Counted from the first letter of the stretch, positions 3,090-28,658 are shown. The stretch is 42,988 bases of DNA from Gemmatimonadales bacterium (GCA_035710265.1 DASTDR010000472.1:1-42988); one strand, 5' to 3'. A program made the numbers and translations. Notes: generated from the letters alone by a model not told the origin.

Positions 3090-3656
3090 TCAGCGCGCCT
3101 CGCTTCCGCTGACTCGTCGCAGTCTGCGCTCCTCGTCATCGTAGGTGATCAGCACGATGTCGCGGCGCGCGATGCGAATCGTGTCGTGGAACGTGAGGGC
3201 GGGCGGGGTTTCACGCGCTTCGTGTGCGCGGTCTTCCTCCCCTTCGCGAAACAAGGCTCCGGCGGTCATGCGCTCGAACGCGACTTCAATGCGGTGCCGG
3301 CCGCTCGCAACGGGCAGCTCGAAGAACACGAACAGCGGTCGATCCTCGCGCACGCCGCCTGCCCGAGCGGTGTCGTCGAGAACGAGGACGCTGTCAATCC
3401 ACACACGGAGGTGATACGGGAGGATGTGCCGCGTGCAGACTTCTTTCTGACGCATGTGCACGGGCATCCTCGCCAGCTCCTCGGGCGCGACGCGGCGGCA
3501 GACCCGGGCCTGCTCGCCGAGCGCGCGCCACGACAGTCTGATCAGACCCTGGTCCGCCGCCGCGCCGCCGCTGGAGATCGCGGACAACAGCGCGAGTGCG
3601 CCGGCGCTGCCGGCGGCGACGGCCAGACCGAGCGCGCGCCACGGTCTCCACTTCAT
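3090..3656 (-). CDS. membrane-anchored or secreted hypothetical protein, translationally coupled to the cytochrome b fusion
   Basis: ATGA overlap (3653-3656) with the upstream gene. N-terminal hydrophobic segment WRALGLAVAAGSAGALALLSAI. No recognisable motif. Confidence 0.5.
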   Translation of the reverse strand: MKWRPWRALGLAVAAGSAGALALLSAISSGGAAADQGLIRLSWRALGEQARVCRRVAPEELARMPVHMRQKEVCTRHILPYHLRVWIDSVLVLDDTARAGGVREDRPLFVFFELPVASGRHRIEVAFERMTAGALFREGEEDRAHEARETPPALTFHDTIRIARRDIVLITYDDEERRLRRVSGSEAR

Positions 3657-5221
3657 GAGGGGAGCACCGGCTCGACCGTACAGTCGCGCACAACGTCGAC
3701 ATCGGTTTCACCCGCGGCCGCAGCCAGGGCGTCGATCGTCGCCCGGAAATCGTCGATCGCGTGCAGCACAACACCGGGTTCCCCGGGTCCGGCGTGAACG
3801 AACCGCACGCGCCGGCGGTCCACACGCGCCTGGAGCTCGGCTTCCCGTTCGTGATACAGGCGCTGCTCGGTCCATTTCGGGCCTTCGCGGTTTCGGCAAT
3901 CCCGCGGCGGGCAGGATACCACCAGGACACCGCCGGCGCCGGCTCGGATGCAGAACTCGATCACCGAGGTGTGCAGATTACCGGCGCAACTGATCGGACG
4001 AAGGTGCACGCCCGGCCGGCCGTTCCCCGCCACTGCGGCGCTGCGGTCACAGCCGATCACCACGAGGTCACGCGGTCCCAGGCCAGCCGCGGCGACGAAC
4101 GCGCGGATGGCCGAGAGCTGATCACGCCCCGTTCTCCCCGGTGGCCCGACGCCCATTGGCGCGCACGAGCCCGCGCAGATCCCGCAGCTCACACACAGCT
4201 CAGGATGGACGTGGGCAACGAGCGCGGAGCGCACGGTGTCCACGCCCCTCCCGCCCTCGCGGGAGATCATTTCTATCGCTTCGTAGGGGCAGTCGACATA
4301 GCACTGCTCGCACCCGGTACAGATGGTCTCGTCGACCACTGACTTTGGTGGCTCGAGCGCGGGAGCCGGCCGGGTCCACGGGGGCACCAAAAGCAGCACC
4401 ACGCCGAGGAATACGCCGATGACCCACACAATCCCGGCGGGCAAGGCGCGACTGAGCGGCAACCAGAATGTGTAGAAGGCGTCATAGGGTGCCGGGCCGG
4501 GCAGACGAAACAAATCGGCGGCGGGGCCGAGCGGAGCGGGCCAGAGCAGCGACAGGACCAGGAGCAGCGCGATCGTGCCCCACAGCAGCCCGCGCGGCGG
4601 CAGGAGGTTCGGGCGAGCCATGCGCGAGACGTGCAGCCATACGAGCAGTCCCAGCCCGATGGGCAGGGCAATATGGGCGAAGAGATTGAGGAAGAAGAAC
4701 GCCGCGGGGATCGGGCGCTCCCCAACGAACGCCCGGCCGATTGGCTCGCCGAAAATGGGGAGGACGTCGAGCAGCCGCGCGCCCTCTTGCGCCAGGACCT
4801 GCGCCGGGACGTCCCATACCATCACGAGTCCCGTCCACCCACACACCAGCGTCACCGCGACGAGGATCAACCCGGTGACCCACGCGAGCGTACGCGGCCC
4901 CCAACTCCGACCCTGGGCGAACATGCGGAGCGCGTGCACGAGGACGGCGACGACCGCGGCATCGGAAGCGTAGCGGTGCAGGGTCCGGATCCATTCCCCG
5001 AGCCACGGCTGCATGCGAAGCCCGGCGATCGACTGATACGGCGAGCCGACGCGGTAGACGAAGAGCAGGTAGATGCCGGTGACCAACAGCACGAGGAACA
5101 GAGCCACGACCAGGGTGCCGCTTTGGTACAGCGGGTTGTAGCGCCAGCCGTAGAGCCGGTTCATGGCGGCATCGAGCCACGCGAGGACGCGCCAGCTGCC
5201 TTGCCGGGTCCTAATTATCAT
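3653..5221 (-). CDS. fusion protein: di-heme cytochrome b (6 TM) + 2x[4Fe-4S] ferredoxin + MvhD/FlpD-like domain
   Basis: Two H-x13-H pairs sit in TM helices (LHRYASDAAVVAVLVHAL and AHIALPIGLGLLVWLHV), as in cytochrome b of bc complexes. Two Cys clusters: CTGCEQCYVDCP and CVSCGICAGSCAP. The C-terminus resembles the methyl-viologen-reducing hydrogenase delta subunit (VIGCDRSA...ISCAGNLH...VVSCPPRDCRN). Start moved from 5353 to ATG 5221 (MIIRTRQGSW) so that it does not run over the divergent Rrf2 gene. Confidence 0.75.
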   Translation of the reverse strand: MIIRTRQGSWRVLAWLDAAMNRLYGWRYNPLYQSGTLVVALFLVLLVTGIYLLFVYRVGSPYQSIAGLRMQPWLGEWIRTLHRYASDAAVVAVLVHALRMFAQGRSWGPRTLAWVTGLILVAVTLVCGWTGLVMVWDVPAQVLAQEGARLLDVLPIFGEPIGRAFVGERPIPAAFFFLNLFAHIALPIGLGLLVWLHVSRMARPNLLPPRGLLWGTIALLLVLSLLWPAPLGPAADLFRLPGPAPYDAFYTFWLPLSRALPAGIVWVIGVFLGVVLLLVPPWTRPAPALEPPKSVVDETICTGCEQCYVDCPYEAIEMISREGGRGVDTVRSALVAHVHPELCVSCGICAGSCAPMGVGPPGRTGRDQLSAIRAFVAAAGLGPRDLVVIGCDRSAAVAGNGRPGVHLRPISCAGNLHTSVIEFCIRAGAGGVLVVSCPPRDCRNREGPKWTEQRLYHEREAELQARVDRRRVRFVHAGPGEPGVVLHAIDDFRATIDALAAAAGETDVDVVRDCTVEPVLPS

Positions 5222-5235
5222 ATTAACATGATAAT
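5214..5235. promoter_or_regulatory. perfect 8-6-8 palindrome ATTATCAT-ATTAAC-ATGATAAT in an AT-rich island; candidate Rrf2 operator or shared divergent promoter
   Basis: Read directly from 5211-5246 ctaattatcatattaacatgataataatacgatatg. This is the only strongly AT-rich stretch I noticed in the core region. It overlaps the minus-strand ATG (5219-5221) and ends 9 nt before the Rrf2 ATG (5244). Confidence 0.55.
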
Positions 5236-5243
5236 AATACGAT

Positions 5244-5663
5244 ATGCTTTCGCAAACAGCGGAATACGCCTTGCGCGCCGTACTGTACCTGGCGGAGCAC
5301 AGCGATCCCAGCGTGCCGGTGCGCGTCGGGACCATCGCCGACAACCTCGGCATCCCTCAGAACTATCTCTCCAAGATCCTGCACCAGTTGGTCCGCGAAG
5401 GGGTCCTGGGATCGCTGCGCGGGAAAGCCGGCGGCTTTTGGCTCGCCGCTCCGCCGGAGAAGCTGGCGTTGAGCGCCGTCATCATGCCCTTCGATCGCGT
5501 CGAACAGCGACGCCGCTGTCTGCTGGGCCGGCCGCAATGCACCGATCGCAGCGCATGTGCTGCTCATACGCGCTGGAAGGAGGTCGCGGACCGGGTCGCC
5601 GAGTTCTTCCGCGAAACGACGGTGGCGGATCTGCTGGGTCGGGGCGCGGCACTCGTGGTATGA
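5244..5663 (+). CDS. Rrf2-family transcriptional regulator with 3-Cys Fe-S cluster motif (NsrR/IscR-like)
   Basis: N-terminal wHTH MLSQTAEYALRAVLYLAEH...IPQNYLSKILHQLVREGVL. Cys triad CLLGRPQCTDRSAC (C-x6-C-x5-C). Confidence 0.85.
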   Translation: MLSQTAEYALRAVLYLAEHSDPSVPVRVGTIADNLGIPQNYLSKILHQLVREGVLGSLRGKAGGFWLAAPPEKLALSAVIMPFDRVEQRRRCLLGRPQCTDRSACAAHTRWKEVADRVAEFFRETTVADLLGRGAALVV

Positions 5664-5690: not shown

Positions 5691-5852
5691 ATGGCTAGGT
5701 CAGCCCAGCCGGACGAGCGCGCGCCGCTGCTGCAGCGCGTATATGACAATCCTTTTCTCCTGCTGATCGCCGGCATCGGCGTGATGGTGGTGTTCTATAC
5801 GGCCTGGGGCTTGTGGGAGATCCTAACGCTCCCGCCGGCTCCACTGCCCTGA
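5691..5852 (+). CDS. 53-aa single-TM protein, positional analogue of oxidase subunit IIa
   Basis: Too short for the ORF track. Hand translation gives MARSAQPDERAPLLQRVYDNPFLLLIAGIGVMVVFYTAWGLWEILTLPPAPLP. A strong SD (AAGGAGAGG) lies 5 nt upstream. It sits directly upstream of a CuA subunit II, as cbaD does in the second oxidase operon. Confidence 0.55.
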   Translation: MARSAQPDERAPLLQRVYDNPFLLLIAGIGVMVVFYTAWGLWEILTLPPAPLP

Positions 5853-5868
5853 TCCGCGAGGATTCTCT

Positions 5869-6447
5869 ATGCACACCGGTATGCAGTCGCCGCGCGGCAT
5901 CTGGTGGCGGCCCGCGCACAAGACGGAAAAGATGTGGGTGCTCATCGCGTTCGCGTGGTGCTTGGTGCTCTTCGCCATGATGCCGCTGTGGCACCTGAAG
6001 GGCGCGCAGAATCCATCGGGCATTCGTCACCGCGTGGACCCAAACGCGTACGCCCGGCGCACCAACGAGTTCATCCGGACGTACAAGGTCGGCATGGACG
6101 GCGCCATCCCGGTCGTCGAGCCGCCGCCCGGCAGCGACGTCTACCTGCTCGGTCGAATGTGGGCGTGGGAGCCGGTCCTCAAGCTGCACAAGGGTGTGGA
6201 ATACACGCTGCATCTCTCCTCGGTGGACGTGAATCACGGGTTTAGTCTCACGCCGGTGAATCTCAATTTCCAGGTTGTGCCCGGTTACGACTACGGCCTG
6301 CGGATCACGCCCACCCAGGCGGGCGACTTCCGGGTCGTGTGCAACGAGTTCTGCGGCATCCAGCACCATGCGATGGTCGGCCGCATCATCGTGGTTGACG
6401 ACAGCGCGAGCGGCGCCGCACCAACTCGCACCGGAGGTGGCCAATGA
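5869..6447 (+). CDS. heme-copper oxidase subunit II (single-TM, cupredoxin, CuA site intact)
   Basis: CuA ligands DVNHGF ... VVCNEFCGIQHHAM (C-x3-C-x3-H-x2-M). One N-terminal TM helix, as in B-family subunit II. GAGGA lies 6 nt upstream of the ATG. Confidence 0.85.
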   Translation: MHTGMQSPRGIWWRPAHKTEKMWVLIAFAWCLVLFAMMPLWHLKGAQNPSGIRHRVDPNAYARRTNEFIRTYKVGMDGAIPVVEPPPGSDVYLLGRMWAWEPVLKLHKGVEYTLHLSSVDVNHGFSLTPVNLNFQVVPGYDYGLRITPTQAGDFRVVCNEFCGIQHHAMVGRIIVVDDSASGAAPTRTGGGQ

Positions 6448-8177
6448 CCGCCGTCGCCGCTGCTCCCGCTCCCGAGGCGTTCCGCGAGTGCTCCACCACG
6501 GGACTGAAGATCAACGCGCAGGCGGAGGCGCTCATCAAGGTGAACGCCGTCGCCGCGACGGTCTCGCTGCTGATCGGTGGGATCGCGGCCGTGCTCGTGT
6601 TGCTGACGCGCTGGCAGGTCGTGCACCTGCTGTCGGCCGAATGGTTCTACCGCGTGCTCACGGTGCACGGCATGAGCATGCTGATCTTCTTCATCATCTT
6701 CTTCGAGATGGCCGTGCTGTATTTCGCCAGCGCGGTCCTGCTCAACAGCCGCGTTGCCACCCCGCGTCTCGCCTGGGCGTCCTTCTGGCTCATGGTCGGC
6801 GGTGCGCTGCTGGTCGAGTGGATGATGTGGACCGGGAAAGCGGACGTGCTCTTCACGTCGTACGTGCCGCTCCGCGCGCATCCGCTGTACTACCTCGGCA
6901 TCATTCTCTTCGCGGTCGGGGCCTTGATCGTCAGCGGCATCTTCTTCGCCACGCTCGTCGTCGCAAAGCGCGAACGTACCTACGAAGGATCCGTTCCGCT
7001 CGTGACGTTCGGGGCCGCGACCGCCGCCATCATCGCGGTCATCACGCTGCTACACGGCGCCGCGATCTACATTCCGACCTTCCTCTGGTCGCTCGGCCTC
7101 ATGCATGTCGATCCGCAGATCTATCGCATGATCTGGTGGGGCCTGGGTCACTCTTCGCAGCAGATCAACGTGGCGGCGATGGTGTCGCTCTGGTATTTGC
7201 TGGGCGCGCTCACGATCGGCGCCGTCGTCCTCAATGAGAAGATCAGCCGGACCGCCTTCGTGCTCTACGTCCTGTTCATCTCGATGGCCGCGGCACACCA
7301 CCTGCTCGTGGACCCGGGACTCTCGCCCGCGTGGAAGGTCTGGAATACCAGCTACGCGATGTACCTCGCCGTGCTCGCGAGCATGGTACACGGGTTCACC
7401 ATTCCGGCCGGCATGGAGGCATCACAGCGGCTCCGCGGCCTGACGAAAGGAATGTTCGAATGGCTGCGCAAGGCGCCGTGGAGTGATCCCGGGTTCAGCG
7501 CCCTGATCTTTTCAATCATCATCTTCGGCTTCCTGGGCGGAATTACGGGCGTCACGTTTGGAACCGAACAGATCAATCTCATTGCGCACAACACCTTCCG
7601 GGTCCCCGCGCATTTCCATGCCACCGTGGTCGGCGGAACCGCGCTCGCCTTCATGGGCATCACGTACTACGTGATTCCGTTGATCTTCCGAAAACAGGTG
7701 GCCTTCTGGCCGCTCGTGAAGGTGCAACCGTATCTCTTCGCGATCGGCATGACGATCTTCGCCGTTGCCGGGACGTTCGCCGGAACCTTTGGACTGCCGC
7801 GCCGGCACTGGGACACGACCTTCTCGCAGGCGCCGTTTGACGTTCAGTACCACCCGGCCGTGAACCTCATGGTCGGCATCATGGCGATTGGCGGTCTGAT
7901 CGCGGCGGTCGGCGGCGCGATCTACCTCGTGTCGACGGTGTGGTCGGTATTCTTCGGGAAATCGATCGCTGCGCTGTCGGGCGCCGAGATCCGAAATCTG
8001 CGCGCCGGCATACCGGCCGGCATTCTGCGCCCCCCGCCGCCGCTCCCCGCGGGGGACGTCGATCATCGGGGGCTGTCGCGCGGCACCCTGGTCCTGGTCG
8101 GCGTGTTTTTGCTGGCGTTCATCGCGTACTACTTCGTGAACTGGAAGCTGCTCTCCGTCGTCTGGAAGGTCGGATGA
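6444..8177 (+). CDS. heme-copper oxidoreductase subunit I, B-family-like but lacking the His-Tyr cross-link tyrosine (candidate NO reductase)
   Basis: All six canonical His are present (TVHGMS; WWGLGHSS; AAAHHLLVDPG; HNTFRVPAHFH). Where ba3 oxidases have GHPxVYFW, this protein has GHSSQQIN. A Glu lies in TM2 (FFIIFFEMAV). ATGA overlap with subunit II. Confidence 0.8.
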   Translation: MTAVAAAPAPEAFRECSTTGLKINAQAEALIKVNAVAATVSLLIGGIAAVLVLLTRWQVVHLLSAEWFYRVLTVHGMSMLIFFIIFFEMAVLYFASAVLLNSRVATPRLAWASFWLMVGGALLVEWMMWTGKADVLFTSYVPLRAHPLYYLGIILFAVGALIVSGIFFATLVVAKRERTYEGSVPLVTFGAATAAIIAVITLLHGAAIYIPTFLWSLGLMHVDPQIYRMIWWGLGHSSQQINVAAMVSLWYLLGALTIGAVVLNEKISRTAFVLYVLFISMAAAHHLLVDPGLSPAWKVWNTSYAMYLAVLASMVHGFTIPAGMEASQRLRGLTKGMFEWLRKAPWSDPGFSALIFSIIIFGFLGGITGVTFGTEQINLIAHNTFRVPAHFHATVVGGTALAFMGITYYVIPLIFRKQVAFWPLVKVQPYLFAIGMTIFAVAGTFAGTFGLPRRHWDTTFSQAPFDVQYHPAVNLMVGIMAIGGLIAAVGGAIYLVSTVWSVFFGKSIAALSGAEIRNLRAGIPAGILRPPPPLPAGDVDHRGLSRGTLVLVGVFLLAFIAYYFVNWKLLSVVWKVG

Positions 8178-9070
8178 GAGGTCTGGCGGGGCGCGAAGCG
8201 GGCGCCCTGGCGGCGCTCGGCATCATTCTGTCGATCACGGCGGTGTGGTGGGCGCTCGCCCTGTGGCCGCTGCCAGGCGATGTCGCGCCGTGGCTGATCC
8301 GCACGCGCGCCGTGTGCTTTGGTGCGGTCGCGAACGGGCTCCCGACGACCGCCGGTTGGATGGTGCTCATCGGCCAACCCGTGTACATGCTGGCGGCGCT
8401 CTGGCTGATTTCCGGTACCACGGTGCGCTCGGCGCTCAAGACCGTGGCGCGGTTTCGCGCCGGCCGCGGCGTGCTGGCGGCGACGGCAGTCCTCACCCTC
8501 GTGGGTATCTCGAGCGCCGCCATGCGCGTAGCGCGTGCCGCCGACCCCAACCTGCTCGAAACGGGTCAGCCCTCCCCCGCTCCGAGCGACCAGGTCCCCC
8601 GCCTGAACCGCGCGGCACCGCCGCTGACGCTGGTCGATCACCGAGGAGAGCAGCTCACGCTCGCGCGGTTTCGCGGTCGACCGGTATTCATCACGTTCGC
8701 GTTCGCGCATTGCACGACAGTGTGCCCGCTCATTGTGCACGACGTACTGGCAGCCCAGCGGGCGGCGGCCAAGCTCGAACCGGTCGTCGTCGTCGTCACA
8801 CTCGATCCATGGCGAGACGTGCCGGCCCGTCTAGCGACCATCGCAACCCGGTGGCAACTGGGACCGGATGCGTACATCGTCGGCGGCGCCGTTGCTGACG
8901 TCGAGCGAACGCTCGATGCATGGAGCGTCAGTCGGGCCCGCGACCCACGGACCGGAGACATCACCCATGCTCCGGTCGTCTACATCGTCGACCGGAACGG
9001 GCGCATCGCGTTTCCCGTGACCGGAGCAAGTAGCGCGGCGACCATTGCGCGCCTCGCGGATCGCCTGTGA
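8174..9070 (+). CDS. SCO1/SenC-family copper chaperone fused to a polytopic N-terminal membrane domain
   Basis: Thioredoxin-fold motif FITFAFAHCTTVCPLIVHDV (CxxxC) and downstream H in ITHAPVVYIVD. ATGA overlap with the subunit I stop places the start at 8174 rather than 7940. About 130 N-terminal residues carry 3-4 hydrophobic helices. Confidence 0.75.
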   Translation: MRGLAGREAGALAALGIILSITAVWWALALWPLPGDVAPWLIRTRAVCFGAVANGLPTTAGWMVLIGQPVYMLAALWLISGTTVRSALKTVARFRAGRGVLAATAVLTLVGISSAAMRVARAADPNLLETGQPSPAPSDQVPRLNRAAPPLTLVDHRGEQLTLARFRGRPVFITFAFAHCTTVCPLIVHDVLAAQRAAAKLEPVVVVVTLDPWRDVPARLATIATRWQLGPDAYIVGGAVADVERTLDAWSVSRARDPRTGDITHAPVVYIVDRNGRIAFPVTGASSAATIARLADRL

Positions 9071-9921
9071 GCGAACGACTGGCGGCGTACTGGGCGCTCA
9101 CCAAGCCGGGCATCACAGGGCTGGTGATGCTGACCACGGGGGCGGGCGTTGCGTTGGCGGCGCGCGACGCCATGGACATCGCGCTGCTTGCGTACACGCT
9201 CATCGGAACCGGCTTCGTGGTGGCCGGAACCAATGCCTTGAACCAGTGGTGGGAGCGCGACGCCGACGCGCGCATGCACCGGACGCGGCGGCGTCCGCTG
9301 CCGGCCGGGCGACTGGAGCCCGGGGCTGCACTCGTCTTCGCGCTCGGCATCTCGACCGCCGGGCTCGTCTGGCTGGGGACATTGGTGAATGGTCTCACGA
9401 CACTGCTGGCGGCGCTCAGCCTCGTGATCTACGTCGGCGTGTACACCCCGCTGAAGCGCCGCACGTCTCTGGCGTTGTTCGTGGGCGCCGTGCCGGGCGC
9501 GCTTCCGATTCTCGGCGGCTGGACCGCCGCGGGCGCTGGCCTCACGAACGCGGCGTGGGTGCTGTTCGCCATCCTCTTCCTGTGGCAGCTGCCGCACTTC
9601 TTGGCACTGGGGTGGCTCTATCGCGAGGATTACCGCCGCGGCGGGTTCGCGATGCTGAGTCGTCACGATGCCGACGGCCGGCTCACCGGCCGCCAAGCGT
9701 CGCTCTTCTCTCTGGCCCTGCTTGTGGCGAGCCTGCTTCCGGCGTCTGTTGATCTCGCCAGCAGCGCATATGTGATGGGTGCAATCGCCCTCGGTACGGT
9801 ACTGCTGGCTTGGAGTGCGATGCTGTGGCGCGCCCCAACCGCCGCCGGCGCCCGCCGGTTGTTTCTCGCCTCGATCGTGTACCTTCCGGGGTTGCTGTTG
9901 CTTCTGATTGCCACGCCTTAA
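9067..9921 (+). CDS. ctaB: protoheme IX farnesyltransferase (heme O synthase)
   Basis: UbiA-family motifs NALNQWWERDADARMHRTRRRPLPAGRL and 8-9 TM helices. GTGA overlap with the SCO stop. Confidence 0.85.
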   Translation: MSERLAAYWALTKPGITGLVMLTTGAGVALAARDAMDIALLAYTLIGTGFVVAGTNALNQWWERDADARMHRTRRRPLPAGRLEPGAALVFALGISTAGLVWLGTLVNGLTTLLAALSLVIYVGVYTPLKRRTSLALFVGAVPGALPILGGWTAAGAGLTNAAWVLFAILFLWQLPHFLALGWLYREDYRRGGFAMLSRHDADGRLTGRQASLFSLALLVASLLPASVDLASSAYVMGAIALGTVLLAWSAMLWRAPTAAGARRLFLASIVYLPGLLLLLIATP

Positions 9922-12134: not shown

Positions 12135-13924
12135 CTGACCCTGAGAGCGTTGAGGATCACCGCGGCATCCAGCGCTTCCTGCATGACGGCGCCCGCGGCG
12201 GGGGTGATGTGTCCAAGACTCGCGACGACCATCAGCGCGAAGCTCACGCCGAGGCCGACGCCGATACTCTGCAGCGCGATCTGGCGCATGCGCCGGCTGA
12301 TCGCCATGGCATCGCCGAGCCGCGCGATGTCGTCCACCAGCAGCACGACGTCGGCTGCCTCGGCGGACACCGCGGTGCCGTGCGCTCCCATCGCGACACC
12401 GACCGTCGCGGCCGCCAGTGCCGGCGCGTCGTTGATCCCATCGCCGACCATCAGGACGTTGCCGTGGCGCTTCGCCAGCTCCCGGACGGCGGCCACCTTG
12501 TCCGCCGGCAACAGATTGGCGCGCACGGTGCGGATGCCGGCCTGCGCGGCGATTGCTTCGGCGGGCGCTTCGCGATCCCCCGTGAGCATCACGGTGTCGC
12601 GCACGCCCAGGACCGCGAGGTGCTGCATCAGGGCGGGCACTTGATGACGCAGCCGGTCGGCGAAGTGAATCGCGCCCACGATTCTGCCATCCACGGCGAC
12701 GTGTGCGGTCGTGCCGTCGCTCGTGTGTTCGGGCGCGGAGATCCCCACGTCGCGCAGGTGCCGCACTGAGCCGATCTCCACTCGACGACCCTCGACCACT
12801 CCCGAGACTCCGCGCCCGGGGCTCTCGCGAAACCCGGTGACCGACGGGAGTGGGCGTCCGCCCGCGCGATCGCGGCTCGCATCCACGACGGCATGGCCGA
12901 GATGATGGGATGACAACTGCTCGACGGCCGCGGCGAGGCGCAGGACCTCCGGCGCGGCCATGCCGTTCAGTCCTTCGACATGGGCAACCATGGGCTGCCC
13001 CAGCGTCAGCGTGCCGGTCTTATCGAAGACCACCGCCTGGGCGCGGCCGAGCTGCTCGATCGCGCGGCCATGCTTCACGATCACCCCGAGATCCGCGGCG
13101 CGACTGATCCCCGCGATCACCGCGACGGGCGTCGCGAGAATCAATGGACAGGGCGTCGCCACGACGAGAACCGCCAGGATGCTCGTCGTCGTACCCGTCA
13201 CGAGGAACGCGATGCCACACATCAGCAGCGTGACCGGGGTGAACCACACCGCGAACCGGTCCGCCAGACGCTGGATCGGCGGTTTCTCCCGTCTCGCTTG
13301 CTCGACCAGCAACACGATCTGCTGGTACTGACTCTGCGCGCTCGCGCGCAGGGCGCGGACGCGCAACGCGCCATCGAGGTTCACGCTGCCGCTCAGGAGA
13401 TGCGTGCCGGCGACCGCGCGCAGCGGCAGCGGCTCGCCCGTAAGCGCCGACTGATCGACGCTCGACGTGCCGTCGATCACTTCGGCATCCACCGGCACGA
13501 GATCGCCGGGCCGCACCAGAATCTCGTCTCCCACGACCACCGTCTCCACGGGGACATCCTCGACCTCGGCGCCACGCATGCGATGCGCTACCTTCGGCGC
13601 CCGAGCCATGAGTGCCTCGAGTGAGCTCGAGGCTCGCCGCATCGCGTACGCTTCGAGCGCCTCCCCGCCGGATTGCATCAGCACGATGACGACGCCCGCA
13701 AAGTACTGCCCCAGGATGATAGCCGTGACGATCGCGAGCGTCGCGACGATGTCCGCGGCAAATCGGCCGCGGAACACCCCCGTCACCGTCTTCAGGACCA
13801 GCGGGATGCCGCCCGCGAGCACCGTACCGAGAAAGACTGCGTCGGAGCCCGTGAGGAGTCCCACCACCAGACCGGCGGCGGCGAGTAGCGCGATCAGCCG
13901 GTGCGCGTCAGCTTTGTTGCGCAT
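12131..13924 (-). CDS. P1B-type heavy-metal ATPase with TPCP transmembrane motif and no soluble metal-binding domain
   Basis: TGEPLP, DKTGTLT, GDGINDAPAL, and TM motif VVATPCPLILATP. ATGA overlap with the downstream synthetase. ATG at 13924 (MRNKADAH) preferred over TTG at 13933. Confidence 0.8.
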   Translation of the reverse strand: MRNKADAHRLIALLAAAGLVVGLLTGSDAVFLGTVLAGGIPLVLKTVTGVFRGRFAADIVATLAIVTAIILGQYFAGVVIVLMQSGGEALEAYAMRRASSSLEALMARAPKVAHRMRGAEVEDVPVETVVVGDEILVRPGDLVPVDAEVIDGTSSVDQSALTGEPLPLRAVAGTHLLSGSVNLDGALRVRALRASAQSQYQQIVLLVEQARREKPPIQRLADRFAVWFTPVTLLMCGIAFLVTGTTTSILAVLVVATPCPLILATPVAVIAGISRAADLGVIVKHGRAIEQLGRAQAVVFDKTGTLTLGQPMVAHVEGLNGMAAPEVLRLAAAVEQLSSHHLGHAVVDASRDRAGGRPLPSVTGFRESPGRGVSGVVEGRRVEIGSVRHLRDVGISAPEHTSDGTTAHVAVDGRIVGAIHFADRLRHQVPALMQHLAVLGVRDTVMLTGDREAPAEAIAAQAGIRTVRANLLPADKVAAVRELAKRHGNVLMVGDGINDAPALAAATVGVAMGAHGTAVSAEAADVVLLVDDIARLGDAMAISRRMRQIALQSIGVGLGVSFALMVVASLGHITPAAGAVMQEALDAAVILNALRVR

Positions 13925-14330
13925 GGTCGACAAGGCGGTGACGGCGCTGGCCAGGGCGAGCTACGATCGCTGCTGCAAGGCGCCCGATTTCCTGCAGGCG
14001 TTCTACCGGCATTTCCTCGCGGCATGTCCCGAGGCCGCGCCGCGGTTCGCCCGGACGGACTTCGAGCAGCAGACCAGGCTGTTGCGACACGCGATCGGCC
14101 TGCTGCTCATCTTCCCGACACAGCCACCGAAAGAGCCGCCACTGCTCGCGCGGCTCGCCGAGCGGCACAGCCGGCGCGATCTCGACATCGATCCCGCGTT
14201 CTACCGCCCGTTCATCGAATCCCTCATCGCGACGGTCAAACAGTACGACGGCGAGTGCACTCCTGCCATTGAAGCGGCCTGGCGGGAGACGGTTGCACCC
14301 GGCGTGCAGTACATGACGTCCAAGCATTAG
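13923..14330 (+). CDS. single-domain globin (sensor-globin-like lineage)
   Basis: MVDKAVTALARASYDRCCKAPDFLQAFYRHFL...LLRHAIGLLL...AERHSRRDLDIDPAFYRPFIESL has the helix pattern and His positions of bacterial single-domain globins. The start is uncertain: ATG 13923 or in-frame GTG 13938. Confidence 0.55.
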   Translation: MVDKAVTALARASYDRCCKAPDFLQAFYRHFLAACPEAAPRFARTDFEQQTRLLRHAIGLLLIFPTQPPKEPPLLARLAERHSRRDLDIDPAFYRPFIESLIATVKQYDGECTPAIEAAWRETVAPGVQYMTSKH

Positions 14331-14336
14331 CCATCC

Positions 14337-15959
14337 TCAGAACGGCTTGAACCCCGGCGAACCGAATCGGGGCATCTGCAAGTGGTGCCACAGCGGATAC
14401 GCGTACGCGATGATCACCAGGACCACGGCGACGCCGGTCCACACCCAGTAGCGGTCGAAGATCGTGCGTCCCGGCGCGAGGGGGTGCAGCGGCTCCGCCC
14501 ACTCGATCGTCTGCGATGCCGTCCGCTTCCCTGCCAGCCGCGTGCCGATCATCACCAGAATGAAAAACGCGGCGCTCGTGAACAGGAACAGCCCGCCGAC
14601 CGCGGACACACCGGTCAAGCCGCGCCACGCCTCGGCGACCGGACTGCCGCCGTAACTCGCGTCGTACACTCGGCGCGGCATGCCCATCAGACCGGTGATG
14701 TGGTTCGAGAACGAAAACAGCATCATGCCGATGAACCACAGGTAGGGCTGCACCCGCGCGAGCAAGGCCAGCTCGAGCTCGCGGCCCGACAGCCGCGGCA
14801 CGAGCCAGTAGGCCGCCCCCATGAAGGTGAGCGCGACCGCGCTGCCGACGGTGAGGTGGAAGTGGCCCTGAATGAATGCCGTGTTGTGCACGACCGCGTT
14901 CATCCCGAATGACGCGTTGATGGCGCCGCCGATCCCGCCGACTGCGAACAGGATCATGGACAGCGCCACGCTCGAGAACAGGGGATCGCGCCACGGCAGC
15001 TTGCCGATCCAGTCGAGCAGCCCCTTCGCGCCCTGCATCCGGCCACCGACCTCCATGGATGCCGTCACGGTGAACGCGGTGATGAAGCTCGGGAACAGAA
15101 TCGCGAAGGTGAGAAACGTGTGCAGCAGCTTCCAGCCTGACGAGACGCCCGGATCCATGAACTGATGGTGGAATCCGACCGGCGTCGAAAACAGAATGAA
15201 CAGCGCGAACACGAGCCGAGCGAGCGGATCGCTGAACAGCTTCCCGCCCGCGATCCGGGGCAGGACCGAGTACCAGATCACGTAGGCCGGCAGCAGCCAG
15301 AAGTACACGAGCGGATGTCCGAAGTACCAGAACAGCATGCGCGACAGCACCGGGTCCACGCCATTCGTCCAGCCCAGCGACCAGGGAATGAGCTGGAACA
15401 GCACCTCGACCGCGACACCGATCGTCGCGATGTACCAGACCACCACCGTCGCGATCATGCCGTGCATCGCGAGCGGCGCGGGCCGGTCGGGACGCGTCCG
15501 GCGCCAGCTGCGATACGACAGCAGCATCACCGCACCCCAGCACCACGACCCGACCACCACCAACGTGAGCCCGATGTAGAACGCGGGATGCGCCTGCAGC
15601 GGCGGATAGAACGTGTACAGCACGGTGGCTTTGCCGGTGAGAATCGCGAACGCCGCAGACGCAGTGCCCGCCAGCGCGAGCCAGAATCCCGCCCATGCGA
15701 GCTTGATGGGGGACGGTTCCTGATCCAGCGCGCGCGTGACGACGACGTAGCCGAACGCCATGATGAAGAACGTCGTGAACACGAGCGCCATGAGCACGCC
15801 GTGCGCGGTGACCGACAGGTAATACATCTTGGCCGAACGCCACGGCAGATCGAGGCTGGCGCGTGACAGCGACTGCATCAATGCCATCGCCGATGCCGCC
15901 CCGAACGCCACGACGGCGACCCACAGGTGGGACAGCGACAGCCGGTCGGCGCGCGTCAT
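14337..15959 (-). CDS. cbaA: cytochrome ba3-type (B-family) oxidase subunit I
   Basis: FWYFGHPLVYFWLLPAY (His plus cross-link Tyr), VGFHHQFMDPG, VVHNTAFIQGHFHL. Closely parallels Thermus ba3 subunit I from memory. ATGA overlap with subunit II sets the start at 15959. Confidence 0.9.
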   Translation of the reverse strand: MTRADRLSLSHLWVAVVAFGAASAMALMQSLSRASLDLPWRSAKMYYLSVTAHGVLMALVFTTFFIMAFGYVVVTRALDQEPSPIKLAWAGFWLALAGTASAAFAILTGKATVLYTFYPPLQAHPAFYIGLTLVVVGSWCWGAVMLLSYRSWRRTRPDRPAPLAMHGMIATVVVWYIATIGVAVEVLFQLIPWSLGWTNGVDPVLSRMLFWYFGHPLVYFWLLPAYVIWYSVLPRIAGGKLFSDPLARLVFALFILFSTPVGFHHQFMDPGVSSGWKLLHTFLTFAILFPSFITAFTVTASMEVGGRMQGAKGLLDWIGKLPWRDPLFSSVALSMILFAVGGIGGAINASFGMNAVVHNTAFIQGHFHLTVGSAVALTFMGAAYWLVPRLSGRELELALLARVQPYLWFIGMMLFSFSNHITGLMGMPRRVYDASYGGSPVAEAWRGLTGVSAVGGLFLFTSAAFFILVMIGTRLAGKRTASQTIEWAEPLHPLAPGRTIFDRYWVWTGVAVVLVIIAYAYPLWHHLQMPRFGSPGFKPF

Positions 15960-16593: not shown

Positions 16594-16603
16594 CGGATCC
16601 TCG

Positions 16604-20636: not shown

Positions 20637-20719
20637 AGCCTGGGCTCCATGGAGCGGGGTACGATCAACGTGCTCAAACCATCCTGAATGTCGACTGAAA
20701 AGACCTCGAAGGAGTGCTC

Positions 20720-21766
20720 ATGCGCCATCGCGTAACCACCTGCATCTGCCTGTTCGCTGCCGCCGTCCTCCTGCCCGCCTGCCGCGAGGATCGACCGCCA
20801 TCCCCCTCCGACGGCGGCCAGGTCCAAGTCCCCCCGAGCGAAATCCCGGCTGACGTCTCGCACGGTGAGGCGCGCGTCGGGTCGACAGCGGAGTCCCCGG
20901 CCATCGACCCCGTGGCGCCGCCGCGGGCTACCAGCCGGCTCCATCGCCTGCGTATCGCGATCACGCACGCGAAAGTCACGATTGCCGACGGAGTCTCGTA
21001 CGACGCGTGGACATTCGACGACCGCGTCCCCGGTCCCGTGATGCGCGTGACCCAGGGAGACACGGTCGAGTTCACGCTCGTGAATCGGTCCCCCATGCCG
21101 CACAGCCTCGACTTTCACGCCGCCGAGATCGCTCCGGATCGTGCGTACCGCAACCTCATGCCCAAGGATTCGATCAAGTATCGGTTCGTCGCGCGCGTAC
21201 CCGGGGCCTTCATGTATCACTGCGGCACGGCCCCGGTGGCGCTCCACATCGCGAACGGGATGTACGGAGCGATCATCGTCGATCCCCGTCAGGCGCGGCC
21301 GCGCGCCAAGGAGTTCGTGTTCGTGCAGAGCGAGTTCTACACCAAGACGCTGGCCGACTCCACGCGCACCATCCATTGGGACAAGCTGCTGGGGTTGGCA
21401 CCGGACTACGTTGTGTTCAACGGTCGGGAGGCCATCTACGCGAAACACCCGATCCCGGTGCGGGTAGGCGAGCCGCTGCGGATGTACGTGGTCAACGCGG
21501 GTCCGAACCGGTTCTCGGCGTTCCACGTGGTGGGCGCGATCTTCGATCGCGTGTTCATGGACGGGTCGCTCGCGCATCCGCTCGAGGGCGTGCAGACGGT
21601 GACGGTCCCCGTCGGCGGGGGCGCGATCTTCGAGGCGCGACTGGTCGAGCCGGGAACCTATCCGTTCGTGAGTCACGCGTTTGCGGACGCGACCAAAGGT
21701 GCGGTCGGGGTCTTCCAAGCTCAGATGTCGGACAACCCGGCCGGCGAAACGCGGCCCCAGAGATGA
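20720..21766 (+). CDS. nirK: copper-containing nitrite reductase
   Basis: T1/T2 Cu ligand motifs PHSLDFHAA and FMYHCGTAPVALHIANGMYG. Two cupredoxin domains. GAAGGAG lies 5 nt upstream of ATG 20720 (the track starts at GTG 20714). N-terminus MRHRVTTCICLFAAAVLLPAC suggests a lipoprotein-type signal. Confidence 0.88.
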   Translation: MRHRVTTCICLFAAAVLLPACREDRPPSPSDGGQVQVPPSEIPADVSHGEARVGSTAESPAIDPVAPPRATSRLHRLRIAITHAKVTIADGVSYDAWTFDDRVPGPVMRVTQGDTVEFTLVNRSPMPHSLDFHAAEIAPDRAYRNLMPKDSIKYRFVARVPGAFMYHCGTAPVALHIANGMYGAIIVDPRQARPRAKEFVFVQSEFYTKTLADSTRTIHWDKLLGLAPDYVVFNGREAIYAKHPIPVRVGEPLRMYVVNAGPNRFSAFHVVGAIFDRVFMDGSLAHPLEGVQTVTVPVGGGAIFEARLVEPGTYPFVSHAFADATKGAVGVFQAQMSDNPAGETRPQR

Positions 21767-26762: not shown

Positions 26763-28658
26763 TCAGTTACCGCCACCGGCGCCGCCCGCGGCCACCGGTG
26801 TTCCGGCGCGCGGCTTCACCAGCAGATAGCCCTGCATCTCCTGGTGCATCGCCGAGCAGAAATTCGTGCAATAGAACGGATAGACGCCGGGTTTCGTGGC
26901 GCGGAACGCAATCGTCTTGGTCTCGCCCGGATCGACGACCACGTTGATGTTGTAGCCCGCGAATCCGAGGCCGTGCAGCATGTCCCGCTCCTGCTCGGCG
27001 TTGGTGACGTGGATGATCACGGAATCGCCTTGCTGCACTTCGACTTCGCCCGGGGCGAAGTAGGAGCGAATCGCGAACATCTTGACCTCGACGATGTTGC
27101 CGCGCCGCGTAATCCGCCCGTCGGCCGCCGCCCAGATCGCCTGCGGATGGCGATTCTCGGCCTTCGGATACACTTCGATCGGCTTCAGCAGATCGGCACG
27201 CACGAGCTGCGCGAAATGCGGCTCCGGCTCGGTGTACGCCTCGTACAGCATCGTCAGGCCGTCGCCGGTGATGTCGATGAGCTGGCTCGATTCCGGCTGC
27301 GACGGTCCCACGTTCAGATGGCGGCCCTTGGAGAGCTTGTTCATCGAGATCAGGTAGCGGCCCACCGGATGACGCGTGTCGCCGTGCGCCGTGACCAGAT
27401 GTCCCACCGAGAAGTGCACGGGAATCTTGGCGACCACGAGCGCCGAGTCCTTACCGTCGAACGGCCCGAGCTTCCACTTGGCGACCGCCGACTCCACGAA
27501 CAGCGATGTGTACGCATAACCCTGATCGTCGAATTGCGTGTGCAACGGCCCGAGGCCGACCGGCACCTCGGCGACACGGATCGACTCGAAACGCAAGACG
27601 GGAATCCCGTCCTCGTTGCCAACCGTGTCGTTGGCGGTGGTCGCGGTGAGGAACTTCTGGAAGTCGAACACCGTGACGAACGGCGCCAGCTTGCCGCCGC
27701 CCACCACGTACCGGCCGTCAGGCGAGAAGTCGGCACCGTGCGGACTCTTGGCGAGCGGCACGAGATACATCATGCCCGGCACCTCGCGCGGATTGAGCAC
27801 GCGCACGCCGCCGATCATCTTGCCTTTTCCCGCCGCCGCGGCCGCCGCAGCCTTGCGCCAGTTCACGAACGTGATGTAGTCGCGATCGCGCTGGCTGGCG
27901 GTCACCTCGAGCCGGCCGGTGGCCCGCTCACTGTTGTACGAGCTCCACACCACCCAGTCGGCGGAGATTTCGCGGCCGGTCGCCGCGAGGTCCCAGTCGA
28001 ACGGCGGGGTCACGATCTGCCAGGAGACCGACATCTCGCCGCTCGCGCTGTCGATCTTGATGCCGCTCAGGATCCCCTTGTAGTCCGTCGCGTACCGGGA
28101 GGTTGGGGCGTACGTGCCCCGGGGGATGGGAATCGAGAACCGGCTCGCGACGAGCGCGTACTCGCTGTTTTCGGTCACGAACGCCGAGCCGTGATTGCCG
28201 CTCGAGTTGGCGATCGGACCGAGAATCTGCTTCGTCTTGAAATCCCGCAGGTCCACGCGCGCCAGGCGGTTGTTGGCGTTGTCGTTCACGAACAGCCAGC
28301 GACCGTCGTAATCGCCCTTCGTCTTGGACAGCGCGGGGTGGTGCACGTCGCCCCAGGTGTACTCGCCCAGCATCTCTTTACTTTCGATATCGAATCCGTA
28401 CCCGGTGGCCGGGTAGGGGGCGAAGACGGGAATGGTGGCGATGTGCCGCATCGAGGGGACGCCGGCGACATAGATCTGGCCGGAATGCCCGCCGCTGTAG
28501 AAGAGATAGAACTCATCCAGCTTCCCGGGCTCGACGAACGTGCGCTGCGCGGCTTCACGGGCGTCCGCAAGTCGGCCACTGCTGCCGCCTTGCGGCCCCT
28601 TGGACGGGGCGCAGGCAGCGAGGGCGAGCACCGCCGCAACGGCGAGATGCTTGTTCAT
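26763..28658 (-). CDS. nosZ: nitrous-oxide reductase, clade II (Sec/lipoprotein-type signal)
   Basis: C-terminal CuA site YCTNFCSAMHQEMQGYL. Long beta-propeller region with conserved His. N-terminus MNKHLAVAAVLALAAC has no twin-arginine motif. Flanked by a cytochrome c and nosB, as in clade II clusters. Confidence 0.92.
   Translation of the reverse strand: MNKHLAVAAVLALAACAPSKGPQGGSSGRLADAREAAQRTFVEPGKLDEFYLFYSGGHSGQIYVAGVPSMRHIATIPVFAPYPATGYGFDIESKEMLGEYTWGDVHHPALSKTKGDYDGRWLFVNDNANNRLARVDLRDFKTKQILGPIANSSGNHGSAFVTENSEYALVASRFSIPIPRGTYAPTSRYATDYKGILSGIKIDSASGEMSVSWQIVTPPFDWDLAATGREISADWVVWSSYNSERATGRLEVTASQRDRDYITFVNWRKAAAAAAAGKGKMIGGVRVLNPREVPGMMYLVPLAKSPHGADFSPDGRYVVGGGKLAPFVTVFDFQKFLTATTANDTVGNEDGIPVLRFESIRVAEVPVGLGPLHTQFDDQGYAYTSLFVESAVAKWKLGPFDGKDSALVVAKIPVHFSVGHLVTAHGDTRHPVGRYLISMNKLSKGRHLNVGPSQPESSQLIDITGDGLTMLYEAYTEPEPHFAQLVRADLLKPIEVYPKAENRHPQAIWAAADGRITRRGNIVEVKMFAIRSYFAPGEVEVQQGDSVIIHVTNAEQERDMLHGLGFAGYNINVVVDPGETKTIAFRATKPGVYPFYCTNFCSAMHQEMQGYLLVKPRAGTPVAAGGAGGGN

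What the first reader, a model, noticed from the sequence alone, without database searches (positions are those of the whole stretch)
5691..8177. Tyrosine-less heme-copper oxidase operon headed by an Rrf2 Fe-S regulator: candidate non-canonical nitric-oxide reductase
The window holds two HCO sets. The minus-strand set (14337-16593) is a textbook B-family ba3 oxidase with GHPLVYFW.

The plus-strand set keeps all six heme/CuB histidines (TVHG, GLGHSS, AAHHLL, HNTFRVPAHFH) and an intact CuA site in subunit II. It differs in three ways:
- Gln replaces the cross-link Tyr (GHSSQQIN).
- The FW that follows is lost.
- A Glu is buried in TM2 (FFEMAV).

This set is co-operonic with a 3-Cys Rrf2 regulator as first gene, a small TM protein, SCO and heme O synthase, through overlapping or near-contiguous junctions. 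nirK and a complete clade II nos operon lie within 20 kb, but no norB/norC/qNor-like gene is visible.

Tyr-less B-family-derived HCOs have been proposed as NO reductases (the eNOR/sNOR/gNOR/nNOR naming). To my knowledge only one eNOR has biochemical support. I cannot assign a subfamily by eye.
Basis: partly seen in the sequence, partly recalled or inferred. Interest (0 to 1): 0.8.

Follow-up and report, generated by a model that had tools for sequence, protein, structure and literature searches.

The report
eNOR-type nitric oxide reductase operon
This operon in a Gemmatimonadales genome encodes a member of the known eNOR family, heme-copper enzymes that have lost the oxygen-reducing tyrosine and turn nitric oxide into nitrous oxide; the call is sound but the enzyme kind is not new.

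Summary
All quoted motifs, coordinates and gene junctions are in the sequence.

Subunit I (6444-8177) is a B-family-derived heme-copper oxidoreductase. All six metal-binding His are present, and Gln240 sits at the cross-link Tyr position (ba3 Y237).

It can be placed in the eNOR family:
- Gln at that site is the published eNOR diagnostic.
- The proton-channel signature is Q240, Y251, S313, H316 plus Glu20 of subunit II. It matches the residues and the spacing published for the biochemically proven Rhodothermus marinus eNOR (Q245, Y256, S318, H321, E-II-21).
- 67 of 67 full-length relatives from more than 10 phyla keep Gln240. They form a clade with 100/100 bootstrap support, separate from Tyr-bearing relatives.

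The lost FW and the TM2 Glu88 are shared with Tyr-bearing sister oxidases.

Murali et al. already counted 22 eNORs in Gemmatimonadota, so this is a new member of a known kind.

Two side findings have modest novelty:
- A Cys3-His Rrf2 regulator with a conserved operator-like motif is linked to eNOR.
- A cytochrome b–2[4Fe-4S]–MvhD fusion gene lies beside eNOR in 69 of 85 loci.

The parts
5214..5235 (.). Perfect 8-6-8 palindrome ATTATCAT-ATTAAC-ATGATAAT in the divergent promoter region. Candidate operator of the Rrf2 regulator. It overlaps -10-like hexamers on both strands.
   Evidence: The related motif CTTGC-N10-13-ATCATAT(C/T)A(A/T)CATG lies upstream of Rrf2 in most of 11 other Gemmatimonadota loci (near-variants in L074, L080, L081). 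The minus-strand promoter-like site TTGCGA-16-TATCAT spans 5255-5228. Binding is inferred, not shown.
5244..5663 (+). Rrf2-family Fe-S transcription regulator and first gene of the operon. Candidate cluster ligands are C92, C99, C105 and H108.
   Evidence: Pfam Rrf2 at 103 bits and TIGR00738 at 112 bits, above their cutoffs. IscR (73 bits) and NsrR (45 bits) equivalogs fall far below theirs. The Cys3-His motif is conserved in all 16 aligned orthologues, including divergently encoded ones in other phyla.
5691..5852 (+). 53-aa single-TM protein, probably a small third subunit. This is by analogy with subunit IIa, which is encoded upstream of subunit II in ba3 operons.
   Evidence: No family hit. 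tblastn finds it directly upstream of subunit II in 66 of 85 eNOR loci. The subunit role is inferred.
5869..6447 (+). eNOR subunit II: an N-terminal TM helix plus a CuA cupredoxin domain. Glu20 is the predicted K-channel entrance.
   Evidence: COX2 and CoxB hits. H123, C158, E160, C162, H166, M169, E20 and W23 are invariant in 81/81 orthologues. E20 corresponds to E-(II)21 of R. marinus eNOR.
6444..8177 (+). eNOR subunit I, the catalytic subunit.
- Low-spin heme ligands: H75 and H392.
- High-spin heme ligand: H390.
- Non-heme metal site: H236, H285, H286.
- Q240 replaces the cross-link Tyr.
- K-channel residues: Y251, S313, H316.
8174..9070 (+). Membrane-anchored SCO1/SenC copper chaperone with a CTTVC motif, for copper-centre assembly.
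   Evidence: Pfam SCO1-SenC at 74 bits. Present next to eNOR in 68 of 85 loci. The start codon overlaps the subunit I stop codon.
9067..9921 (+). Heme O synthase (CtaB/CyoE). It supplies the farnesylated or geranylgeranylated heme precursor.
   Evidence: TIGR01473 at 254 bits, cutoff 210. Present in 32 of 85 loci. R. marinus eNOR uses heme As in both heme sites.
3653..5164 (-). Divergently transcribed fusion protein. It has a 6-TM di-heme cytochrome b (two H-x13-H pairs), a 2x[4Fe-4S] ferredoxin domain and an MvhD/FlpD-like domain. It is a conserved eNOR neighbour of unknown role. An alternative start lies at 5221.
   Evidence: Pfam and NCBIfam hits. PDB sequence matches: cytochrome b6 at 7e-14, HdrA ferredoxin domain at 5e-7, MvhD at 9e-5. 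Adjacent to eNOR in 69 of 85 loci, co-directional in most phyla.
3090..3656 (-). 188-aa protein with an N-terminal signal or anchor and no known family. It is encoded after the cytochrome b fusion.
   Evidence: No family hits. Found in 41 of 85 loci. In L002 it maps inside the 715-aa cytochrome b fusion gene (12713-14860), so it is fused there.
20714..21766 (+). Pathway context: NirK-like copper nitrite reductase, the predicted source of NO.
   Evidence: TIGR02376 at 204 bits, below its 296-bit cutoff. Multicopper oxidase domains present.
26763..28658 (-). Pathway context: Sec-dependent (clade II) NosZ, the predicted sink for the N2O made by eNOR. nosD/F/Y-like genes follow at 23342-26150.
   Evidence: TIGR04246 at 827 bits, cutoff 625. 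NosD, ABC ATPase and ABC-2 membrane protein hits.

Best explanation
The operon encodes an eNOR-family nitric oxide reductase of a Gemmatimonadales bacterium.

Catalysis (inferred by homology):
- A periplasmic donor reduces CuA in subunit II.
- Electrons pass to the bis-His low-spin heme (H75/H392).
- They then reach the binuclear centre: the high-spin heme on H390 and a non-heme metal held by H236, H285 and H286, with Gln240 where oxygen reductases carry the cross-linked Tyr.
- There 2 NO + 2 e- + 2 H+ give N2O + H2O.
- Without the redox-active Tyr the enzyme should not reduce O2.

Proton supply: protons are predicted to come from the cytoplasm through a K-channel analogue (Glu20 of subunit II, Y251, S313, H316). 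That would make the reaction electrogenic. This is proposed for the family, not proven.

Assembly: SCO and heme O synthase in the same operon serve cofactor assembly.

Regulation (inferred): the Rrf2 protein (C92, C99, C105, H108) probably binds the palindrome over the shared promoter region. It would release the DNA when NO or O2 damages its Fe-S cluster.

Pathway: with the nearby NirK-like and clade II NosZ genes, the enzyme would close the nitrite -> NO -> N2O -> N2 route.

Shown versus inferred: sequence membership in the family, conservation and gene linkage are shown here. Activity, metal identity, proton uptake and regulation are inferred.
For: 1. PDB sequence search and fold search both give B-family ba3 as closest. 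Sequence: 7deg 8e-45, 1ehk 1.7e-42. Fold: TM-score 0.72-0.77. No cNOR or qNOR appears in the top 50.
2. ba3 Y237 aligns with Q240. Gln at this site is the stated eNOR diagnostic.
3. Published R. marinus eNOR residues are Q245, Y256, S318, H321 and E-(II)21. Here they are Q240, Y251, S313, H316 and E20, with identical offsets +11, +73, +76. His at the ba3 T312 position is listed only for eNOR, not for bNOR, sNOR or nNOR.
4. In 67/67 full-length relatives, Q240, the six His, Y251, S313 and H316 are invariant. The taxa include Myxococcota, Verrucomicrobiota, Rhodothermales, Balneolaceae, Planctomycetota, Nitrospirota, Gammaproteobacteria, Gemmatimonadota and a haloarchaeon.
5. In the NJ tree the Gln-type clade has 100/100 bootstrap support and the classical B family 100/100.
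6. R. marinus eNOR reduces NO (0.68 per s) and does not reduce O2.
7. Gene content matches the 'very common' eNOR operon of II, I, heme O synthase and sco1.
8. A 57%-identical homologue sits next to nirS and napA. nirK-like genes lie beside 5 of the 85 loci.
9. Murali et al. counted 22 eNOR in Gemmatimonadota genomes, against 1 cNOR and 1 qNOR.
Against: - No activity data exist for this protein or for any Gemmatimonadota member.
- Only one eNOR has been assayed.
- The NJ tree uses simple distances and is unrooted.
- NirK is only NirK-like, below the curated cutoff.
- Most of the 85 loci show no denitrification gene within the flank retrieved.
- The nature of the non-heme metal (Fe or Cu) is unknown for the family.
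- Rrf2 sensing of NO is conjecture. The ligand pattern resembles IscR (Cys3-His) more than NsrR.
Confidence: 0.85

Rival explanations
1. It is still a terminal oxygen reductase that works without the His-Tyr cofactor, or uses Tyr275 or another residue instead.
For: The closest solved structures are O2 reductases. The nearest sister sequences keep the Tyr and share E88, Q239, N242, Y275 and H316. A conserved Tyr275 lies on helix VII.
Against: The characterised eNOR showed no O2 reduction with several donors. Tyr275 is 10 residues before the HH pair, not 6 as in cbb3 (my knowledge), and it is equally conserved in relatives that keep the normal Tyr. Murali et al. report no migrated Tyr in models of these families. 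The genome already has a normal ba3 oxidase 6 kb away.
Confidence: 0.04
2. It handles NO for detoxification or another N-oxide reaction, such as NO dismutation or N2O reduction. It would not be the respiratory NO reductase of a denitrification chain.
For: - Most eNOR loci retrieved have no nir or nos gene nearby.
- Here the operon is 12 kb from the NirK-like gene and under its own Rrf2 regulator. NsrR-type Rrf2 regulators typically control NO detoxification genes (abstracts listed).
- Other Tyr-less heme-copper families are proposed NO dismutases or N2O reductases.
Against: The R. marinus enzyme produced N2O from NO, and the organism denitrified to N2. [quoted passage not shown]
Confidence: 0.08
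3. It is a decaying or inactive paralogue of the ba3 oxidase.
For: It lacks the catalytic Tyr of its parent family.
Against: The ORFs are intact with translationally coupled junctions. All metal ligands are invariant across 67 sequences from more than 10 phyla. More than 8000 database relatives were scored.
Confidence: 0.01

Closest known systems
eNOR of Rhodothermus marinus DSM 4252 (Murali et al. 2024, PMC11214002)
   Same: It is B-family derived. It has Gln at the cross-link Tyr site, an identical K-channel signature and spacing (Q/Y/S/H plus Glu in subunit II), a CuA subunit II, and three His at the non-heme metal site. Heme O synthase and SCO are typical operon partners.
   Different: The phylum differs (Gemmatimonadota versus Rhodothermota). 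Sequence identity is unknown because that sequence was not on hand. Here the operon is headed by an Rrf2 gene and the cytochrome b fusion is divergent. There is no biochemical data.
Cytochrome ba3 oxidase of Thermus thermophilus (B family; PDB 1EHK/1XME)
   Same: Best sequence and fold match. It shares all six His ligands, a CuA subunit II, a small extra TM subunit, Y248, S309 and E-(II)15 of the K-channel analogue, and a single-channel architecture.
   Different: Y237 becomes Q240, W239 becomes N242, T312 becomes H316, Y244 becomes V247 and A85 becomes E88. Only about 24% identity. ba3 reduces O2.
'Cytochrome a1-like hemoprotein' of Magnetospirillum magnetotacticum MS-1
   Same: Murali et al. 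state that it is an eNOR family member with the same unusual heme a spectrum.
   Different: Its function was never determined. Its sequence was not compared here.
bNOR (qCuANOR) of Bacillus azotoformans, and sNOR
   Same: Both are B-family-derived NORs lacking the Tyr, and bNOR is CuA-containing; bNOR keeps K-channel Ser, Tyr and Glu-II, whereas sNOR lacks the Ser and Glu-II equivalents.
   Different: They have Asn, not Gln, at the Tyr site, and Thr, not His, at the ba3 T312 site.
cNOR/qNOR (NorB)
   Same: They catalyse the same overall reaction and have no cross-link Tyr.
   Different: [quoted passage not shown] They have Glu at the Tyr position ligating FeB, heme c or quinol as electron entry instead of CuA, and no conserved cytoplasmic proton channel. 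None appears among the top 50 fold matches.
NsrR and IscR (Rrf2-family Fe-S regulators)
   Same: Rrf2 fold with three Cys near residues 92-105. There is an AT-rich inverted repeat of about 22 bp at the regulator's own promoter. The gene is linked to an NO-metabolising enzyme.
   Different: It scores far below both equivalog cutoffs. The spacing is C-x6-C-x5-C-x2-H, with the IscR-like His present. The signal it senses is unknown.

Membership tests
eNOR | Gln in place of the cross-linked active-site Tyr (H-x3-Y becomes H-x3-Q) | tested here: met
   H236-S-S-Q-Q240. ba3 Y237 aligns to Q240. Invariant in 67/67 relatives. The criterion comes from PMC8756737 Table A4.
eNOR | All three non-heme-metal His and the three heme His retained | tested here: met
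   H236, H285 and H286 for the metal site; H75, H390 and H392 for the hemes.
eNOR | K-channel signature of R. marinus eNOR: Y256, S318, H321 and Glu21 of subunit II | tested here: met
   Y251, S313, H316 and E20(II), with the same offsets from the Gln (+11, +73, +76).
eNOR | CuA-binding cupredoxin subunit II encoded next to subunit I | tested here: met
   H123, C158, E160, C162, H166 and M169 are present and invariant in 81/81.
eNOR | Derived from within, or beside, the B family and monophyletic with other Gln-type sequences | tested here: met
   In the NJ tree the Gln clade has 100/100 support. It includes haloarchaeal and Rhodothermales members. Tyr-bearing relatives and the B family fall outside it.
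eNOR | Same clade as the biochemically characterised R. marinus protein in a tree that contains it | not testable with these tools
   The R. marinus sequence could not be retrieved. Only its published key residues could be compared.
eNOR | NO reductase activity without O2 reductase activity; heme As in both heme sites | not testable with these tools
   This needs biochemistry. Heme O synthase in the operon is consistent with it.
B-family oxygen reductase | Cross-linked His-Tyr cofactor (GHPxVYxW) | tested here: not met
   GHSSQQIN here, against GHPLVYFW in the window's own ba3.
C-family-style oxidase with Tyr migrated to helix VII | A conserved Tyr 6 residues before the HH pair that replaces the helix VI Tyr | tested here: not met
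   Y275 is 10 residues before H285. It is also invariant in sister sequences that keep the helix VI Tyr. The cbb3 geometry is from my own knowledge.
sNOR / bNOR | Asn at the Tyr site; Thr at the ba3 T312 site | tested here: not met
   Gln240 and His316.
gNOR | One metal-site His replaced by Asp; subunit II lacks the CuA ligands | tested here: not met
   All three His and the full CuA site are present.
nNOR | Glu at the Tyr site; low-spin heme ligated by His and Met | tested here: not met
   Q240, with bis-His ligation by H75/H392.
cNOR / qNOR | Glu at the Tyr position; C-family relationship; heme c subunit or quinol site instead of CuA | tested here: not met
   Gln240, a CuA subunit, and best matches all B then A family.
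NsrR (equivalog NF008240) | Score above the curated cutoff (182 bits) | tested here: not met
   45 bits. Only Rrf2 superfamily membership is met (112 bits against a 73-bit cutoff).
IscR (TIGR02010) | Score above the curated cutoff (208 bits); Cys3-His cluster ligands | tested here: inconclusive
   73 bits, below the cutoff. A C92/C99/C105/H108 pattern is nevertheless present and conserved.

The most novel reading that the evidence does not exclude
The bacterial eNOR is not a two-subunit enzyme fed only by periplasmic cytochrome c. It would instead work with a dedicated, conserved module: a di-heme cytochrome b fused to a 2x[4Fe-4S] domain and an MvhD-like domain, plus the 188-aa protein.

Evidence for linkage:
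- The module is next to eNOR in 69 of 85 loci across more than 10 phyla.
- The 188-aa protein is fused to the cytochrome b fusion in some lineages.
- It is absent from the two Tyr-bearing sister loci examined.

This module would link NO reduction to the quinone pool or to a cytoplasmic redox partner. Alternatively it would carry out oxygen-independent maturation of the heme A-type cofactor.

In several phyla a dedicated Cys3-His Rrf2 sensor controls the whole set.
Probability: 0.25. Interest if true: 0.65.

Novelty: new member of a known kind. Interest (0 to 1): 0.3.

Why it matters
[quoted passage not shown] Read that way, a Gemmatimonadales genome with NirK and NosZ but 'no nor' looks like an incomplete denitrifier. 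Recognising the eNOR closes the NO -> N2O step, so the organism becomes a potential complete, probably microoxic, denitrifier. That changes how such soil and sediment bacteria are counted in N2O budgets.

The family itself, and its presence in this phylum, are already published.

What could still be followed up is the conserved gene neighbourhood:
- the Rrf2 sensor with its operator-like motif;
- the cytochrome b–Fe-S–MvhD fusion with its partner protein.

A 2026 preprint on Ferrigenium noticed cytochrome b–Fe-S genes and called them 'rather unusual'. Here they turn out to be the rule.

Tried and rejected
1. Getting the R. marinus eNOR sequence as a direct anchor.
   - I scanned genome contigs with an alignment headed by the 57%-identical P0121. 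It returned 80 loci, all from MAGs, and none was R. marinus.
   - A second whole-database protein search with the Rhodothermales homologue listed 120 hits. None was named Rhodothermus.
   - The anchor finally came from the published residue table.

2. Supplementary files of the PNAS paper are not held. The bioRxiv version's tables were used instead.

3. Testing whether Glu88 or Tyr275 face the binuclear centre.
   - Confidence around H285-H286 and residues 370-382 is low, so the model would have been weak there anyway.

4. Glu88 as an FeB ligand like the Glu of cNOR: rejected. The cNOR Glu sits at the Tyr position on helix VI. Glu88 is on TM2, 13 residues from H75, and is shared with Tyr-bearing oxidases.

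5. The two ~140-aa COX1-like proteins near nirK as fragments of the 497-aa HCO-like paralogue seen in other phyla: no significant similarity.

6. Terminators inside the operon: 4 terminator-like sites against 2.2 +/- 1.6 expected, so not informative.

7. A first literature search with 'eNOR' as a word start matched 'enormous' and was useless.
Full report
**Observation.** The six plus-strand genes are as described:
- Rrf2, 5244-5663
- a 53-aa TM protein, 5691-5852
- subunit II, 5869-6447
- subunit I, 6444-8177
- SCO, 8174-9070
- heme O synthase, 9067-9921

The gaps between them are 27 and 16 nt, followed by three 4-nt overlaps.

Family searches confirm Rrf2, COX2 (weak), COX1, SCO1/SenC and heme O synthase. 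Every quoted motif is present. The residue numbers are H75, E88, H236, Q239, Q240, Y275, H285, H286, H390 and H392. Subunit II has the full CuA ligand set.

The minus-strand oxidase at 14337-16025 is an ordinary B-family enzyme with GHPLVYFW. A NirK-like gene lies at 20714-21766 but scores below the curated cutoff. A clade II nosZ (827 bits) with nosD/F/Y-like genes lies within about 20 kb. No other nor-like gene is among the ORFs of the window that were searched. The closest database relatives are annotated as Gemmatimonadales, up to 96% identity.

**What subunit I is.** Sequence search of the PDB gives only B-family oxidases as strong hits (7deg 8e-45, ba3 1.7e-42). The printed alignment places ba3 Y237 on Q240, the second Gln of GHSSQQ. 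An AlphaFold model (pLDDT 77, pTM 0.82) matches ba3 best (TM-score 0.72-0.77), then A-family oxidases. No cNOR or qNOR is in the top 50, and no eNOR structure exists in that library.

**Literature.** Hemp and Gennis, and later Murali et al., defined several Tyr-less families derived from the B family. Gln at the Tyr site is the stated diagnostic of eNOR. The other families differ: sNOR and bNOR have Asn, cNOR, qNOR and nNOR have Glu, and gNOR has an Asp replacing a metal-site His and lacks CuA.

The R. marinus eNOR was purified. It reduces NO at 0.68 per s, makes N2O, does not reduce O2, and carries heme As in both heme sites.

The preprint's Supplementary Table 1 lists its proton-channel residues as Q245, Y256, S318, H321 and Glu21 of subunit II. 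The window protein has Q240, Y251, S313, H316 and Glu20 of subunit II, with the same offsets from the Gln (+11, +73, +76). His at the ba3 T312 position is listed only for eNOR.

Supplementary Table 2 counts 22 eNOR in Gemmatimonadota genomes, against 1 cNOR, 1 qNOR, 2 sNOR and 1 gNOR. The family was therefore already known to be the main NOR of this phylum.

**Conservation and phylogeny.**
- A profile-free search of 1.84 billion cluster representatives found 1392 relatives.
- Those with GH-x-x-Q-Q-[IV]-N include a 57%-identical protein (P0121) and a 41%-identical one from the haloarchaeon Natrarchaeobius (P0125).
- A scan of GTDB species genomes found 378 relatives. The best 80 come from Myxococcota, Verrucomicrobiota, Rhodothermales, Balneolaceae, Planctomycetota, Nitrospirota, Gammaproteobacteria, Gemmatimonadota and others.
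- In 67 full-length sequences, Q240, E88, Q239, N242, Y251, Y275, S313, H316 and all metal His ligands (H75, H236, H285, H286, H390, H392) are invariant.
- A neighbour-joining tree with 100 bootstraps recovers the Gln-type clade in 100/100 replicates and the classical B family in 100/100.

Between the two clades lies a grade of Tyr-bearing sequences with GH-x-x-Q-Y-[VI]-N, from Hodarchaeales, Thermoproteota and unnamed sources. These share E88, Q239, N242, Y275 and H316. Only the Tyr->Gln change marks the eNOR clade. The lost FW and the TM2 Glu are older traits of a wider lineage that includes apparent oxygen reductases.

**Glu88 and Tyr275.** Glu88 is 13 residues after H75 on TM2 and aligns with ba3 A85, next to Q86. 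From my knowledge of ba3, that region was once proposed as a D-pathway analogue. It is well below the hemes and is not part of the binuclear site. Glu88 is thus unlikely to be a metal ligand. Its invariance suggests a role in proton handling, but this is untested.

Tyr275 is 10 residues before the HH pair. The cbb3 cross-link Tyr is 6 residues before its pair (my knowledge). Tyr275 coexists with the normal Tyr in the sister grade, so it is not a substitute cofactor. Murali et al. likewise found no migrated Tyr.

**Gene neighbourhood.** tblastn of the window's proteins against 85 related loci gave these counts:

| Gene | Loci out of 85 |
|---|---|
| subunit II | 82 |
| cytochrome b–2[4Fe-4S]–FlpD/MvhD fusion | 69 |
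| SCO | 68 |
| 53-aa protein | 66 |
| 188-aa protein | 41 |
| heme O synthase | 32 |
| Rrf2 | 24 |
| nirK-like | 5 |

In Gemmatimonadota the cytochrome b fusion and the 188-aa gene are divergent from Rrf2. In most other phyla they follow SCO in the same direction. In L002 the 188-aa protein maps inside the 715-aa fusion gene. That L002 locus also lies beside nirS and a nap cluster.

The fusion has six predicted TM helices with two H-x13-H pairs. It resembles cytochrome b6, the HdrA ferredoxin domain and MvhD. It is absent from two Tyr-bearing sister loci and from the haloarchaeal locus.

A 2026 preprint on Ferrigenium describes the common eNOR operon as II, I, heme O synthase, sco1 and a scaffold protein. 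It calls its cytochrome b–Fe-S genes 'rather unusual'. In my sample they are the rule.

**Regulator.** The Rrf2 protein belongs to the superfamily but to no curated equivalog: IscR 73 bits, NsrR 45 bits. C92, C99, C105 and H108 are conserved in all 16 aligned orthologues. These include divergently encoded ones at eNOR loci of Myxococcota, Rhodothermales, Verrucomicrobiota and Balneolaceae.

Upstream of Rrf2, most of the 12 Gemmatimonadota loci carry CTTGC-N10-13-ATCATAT(C/T)A(A/T)CATG; three (L074, L080, L081) show close variants. In the window this is a perfect 8-6-8 palindrome at 5214-5235. It overlaps -10-like hexamers for both divergent transcription units. This fits an autoregulated Fe-S repressor controlling both units. 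The signal (NO, O2 or Fe-S status) is unknown. No paper in the library mentions eNOR together with Rrf2 or NsrR.

**Verdict.** It is an eNOR, which makes it a new member of a known, biochemically validated family in a phylum where that family was already catalogued. The practical value is corrected annotation: these genes are labelled cbb3-type oxidase. It also closes the NO -> N2O step for this organism. The conserved cytochrome b–Fe-S–MvhD module and the Cys3-His Rrf2 regulator are the parts that still hold open questions.

Noticed in passing
window 3090-5221 (-), and L002 12713-14860: A cytochrome b (6 TM, di-heme)–2x[4Fe-4S]–MvhD/FlpD fusion gene plus a 188-aa unknown protein lie next to eNOR in 69 and 41 of 85 loci respectively. 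They are divergent in Gemmatimonadota and co-directional elsewhere. In L002 the two are fused into one 715-aa protein. Both are absent from two Tyr-bearing sister loci.
   Followed up: partly
L002/L003 7844-9337 (+), and about 30 other loci just upstream of eNOR: A roughly 450-500-aa paralogue resembling heme-copper subunit I, 26% identical to eNOR subunit I. It keeps both heme His ligands and GGGH-x-x-Q but lacks the HH metal-site pair. It is the same type as representatives P0230 and P0234. It is encoded directly upstream of eNOR in Myxococcota, Verrucomicrobiota, Planctomycetota and Balneolaceae, and is absent from Gemmatimonadota loci.
   Followed up: partly
window 21721-22233 (-), 22122-22541 (-), 20235-20636 (-): Two paralogous ~130-140-aa 4-TM proteins give weak Pfam COX1 N-terminal hits and no NCBIfam hit. 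A CBS-domain protein and the NirK-like gene (20714-21766) lie just downstream of them, and the ZIP transporter that ends the nos cluster lies just upstream. The same trio follows the eNOR operon directly in locus L005 (12596-13960).
   Followed up: partly
representatives P0173, P0177, P0208, P0249: A well-supported clade (100/100) of heme-copper subunit I proteins with FH-x2-HY at the helix VI site and 'YH' in place of the HH pair. One is from Dehalococcoidia. I could not assign them to a named family.
   Followed up: no
window 13923-14330 (+): A 135-aa ORF with a globin-like sequence lies between a P-type ATPase and the ba3 oxidase operon. It has no NCBIfam hit (Pfam was not run on it).
   Followed up: no
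window 16426-16968 (-), C-terminal part: A short hydrophobic ORF upstream of the ba3 subunit II gene is probably a subunit IIa-like peptide. It parallels the 53-aa gene of the eNOR operon.
   Followed up: no
window 22541-23323 (-): A ZIP-family metal transporter gene sits at the end of the nos cluster, between nosY and the small COX1-like proteins.
   Followed up: no
window 42128-42955 (-): A phage-integrase-family gene lies at the edge of the window.
   Followed up: no
L087 8001-12825: A Thermoproteota contig carries two tandem sets of subunit II and subunit I. The first is the Tyr-bearing GH-x-x-Q-Y type that is sister to eNOR.
   Followed up: no
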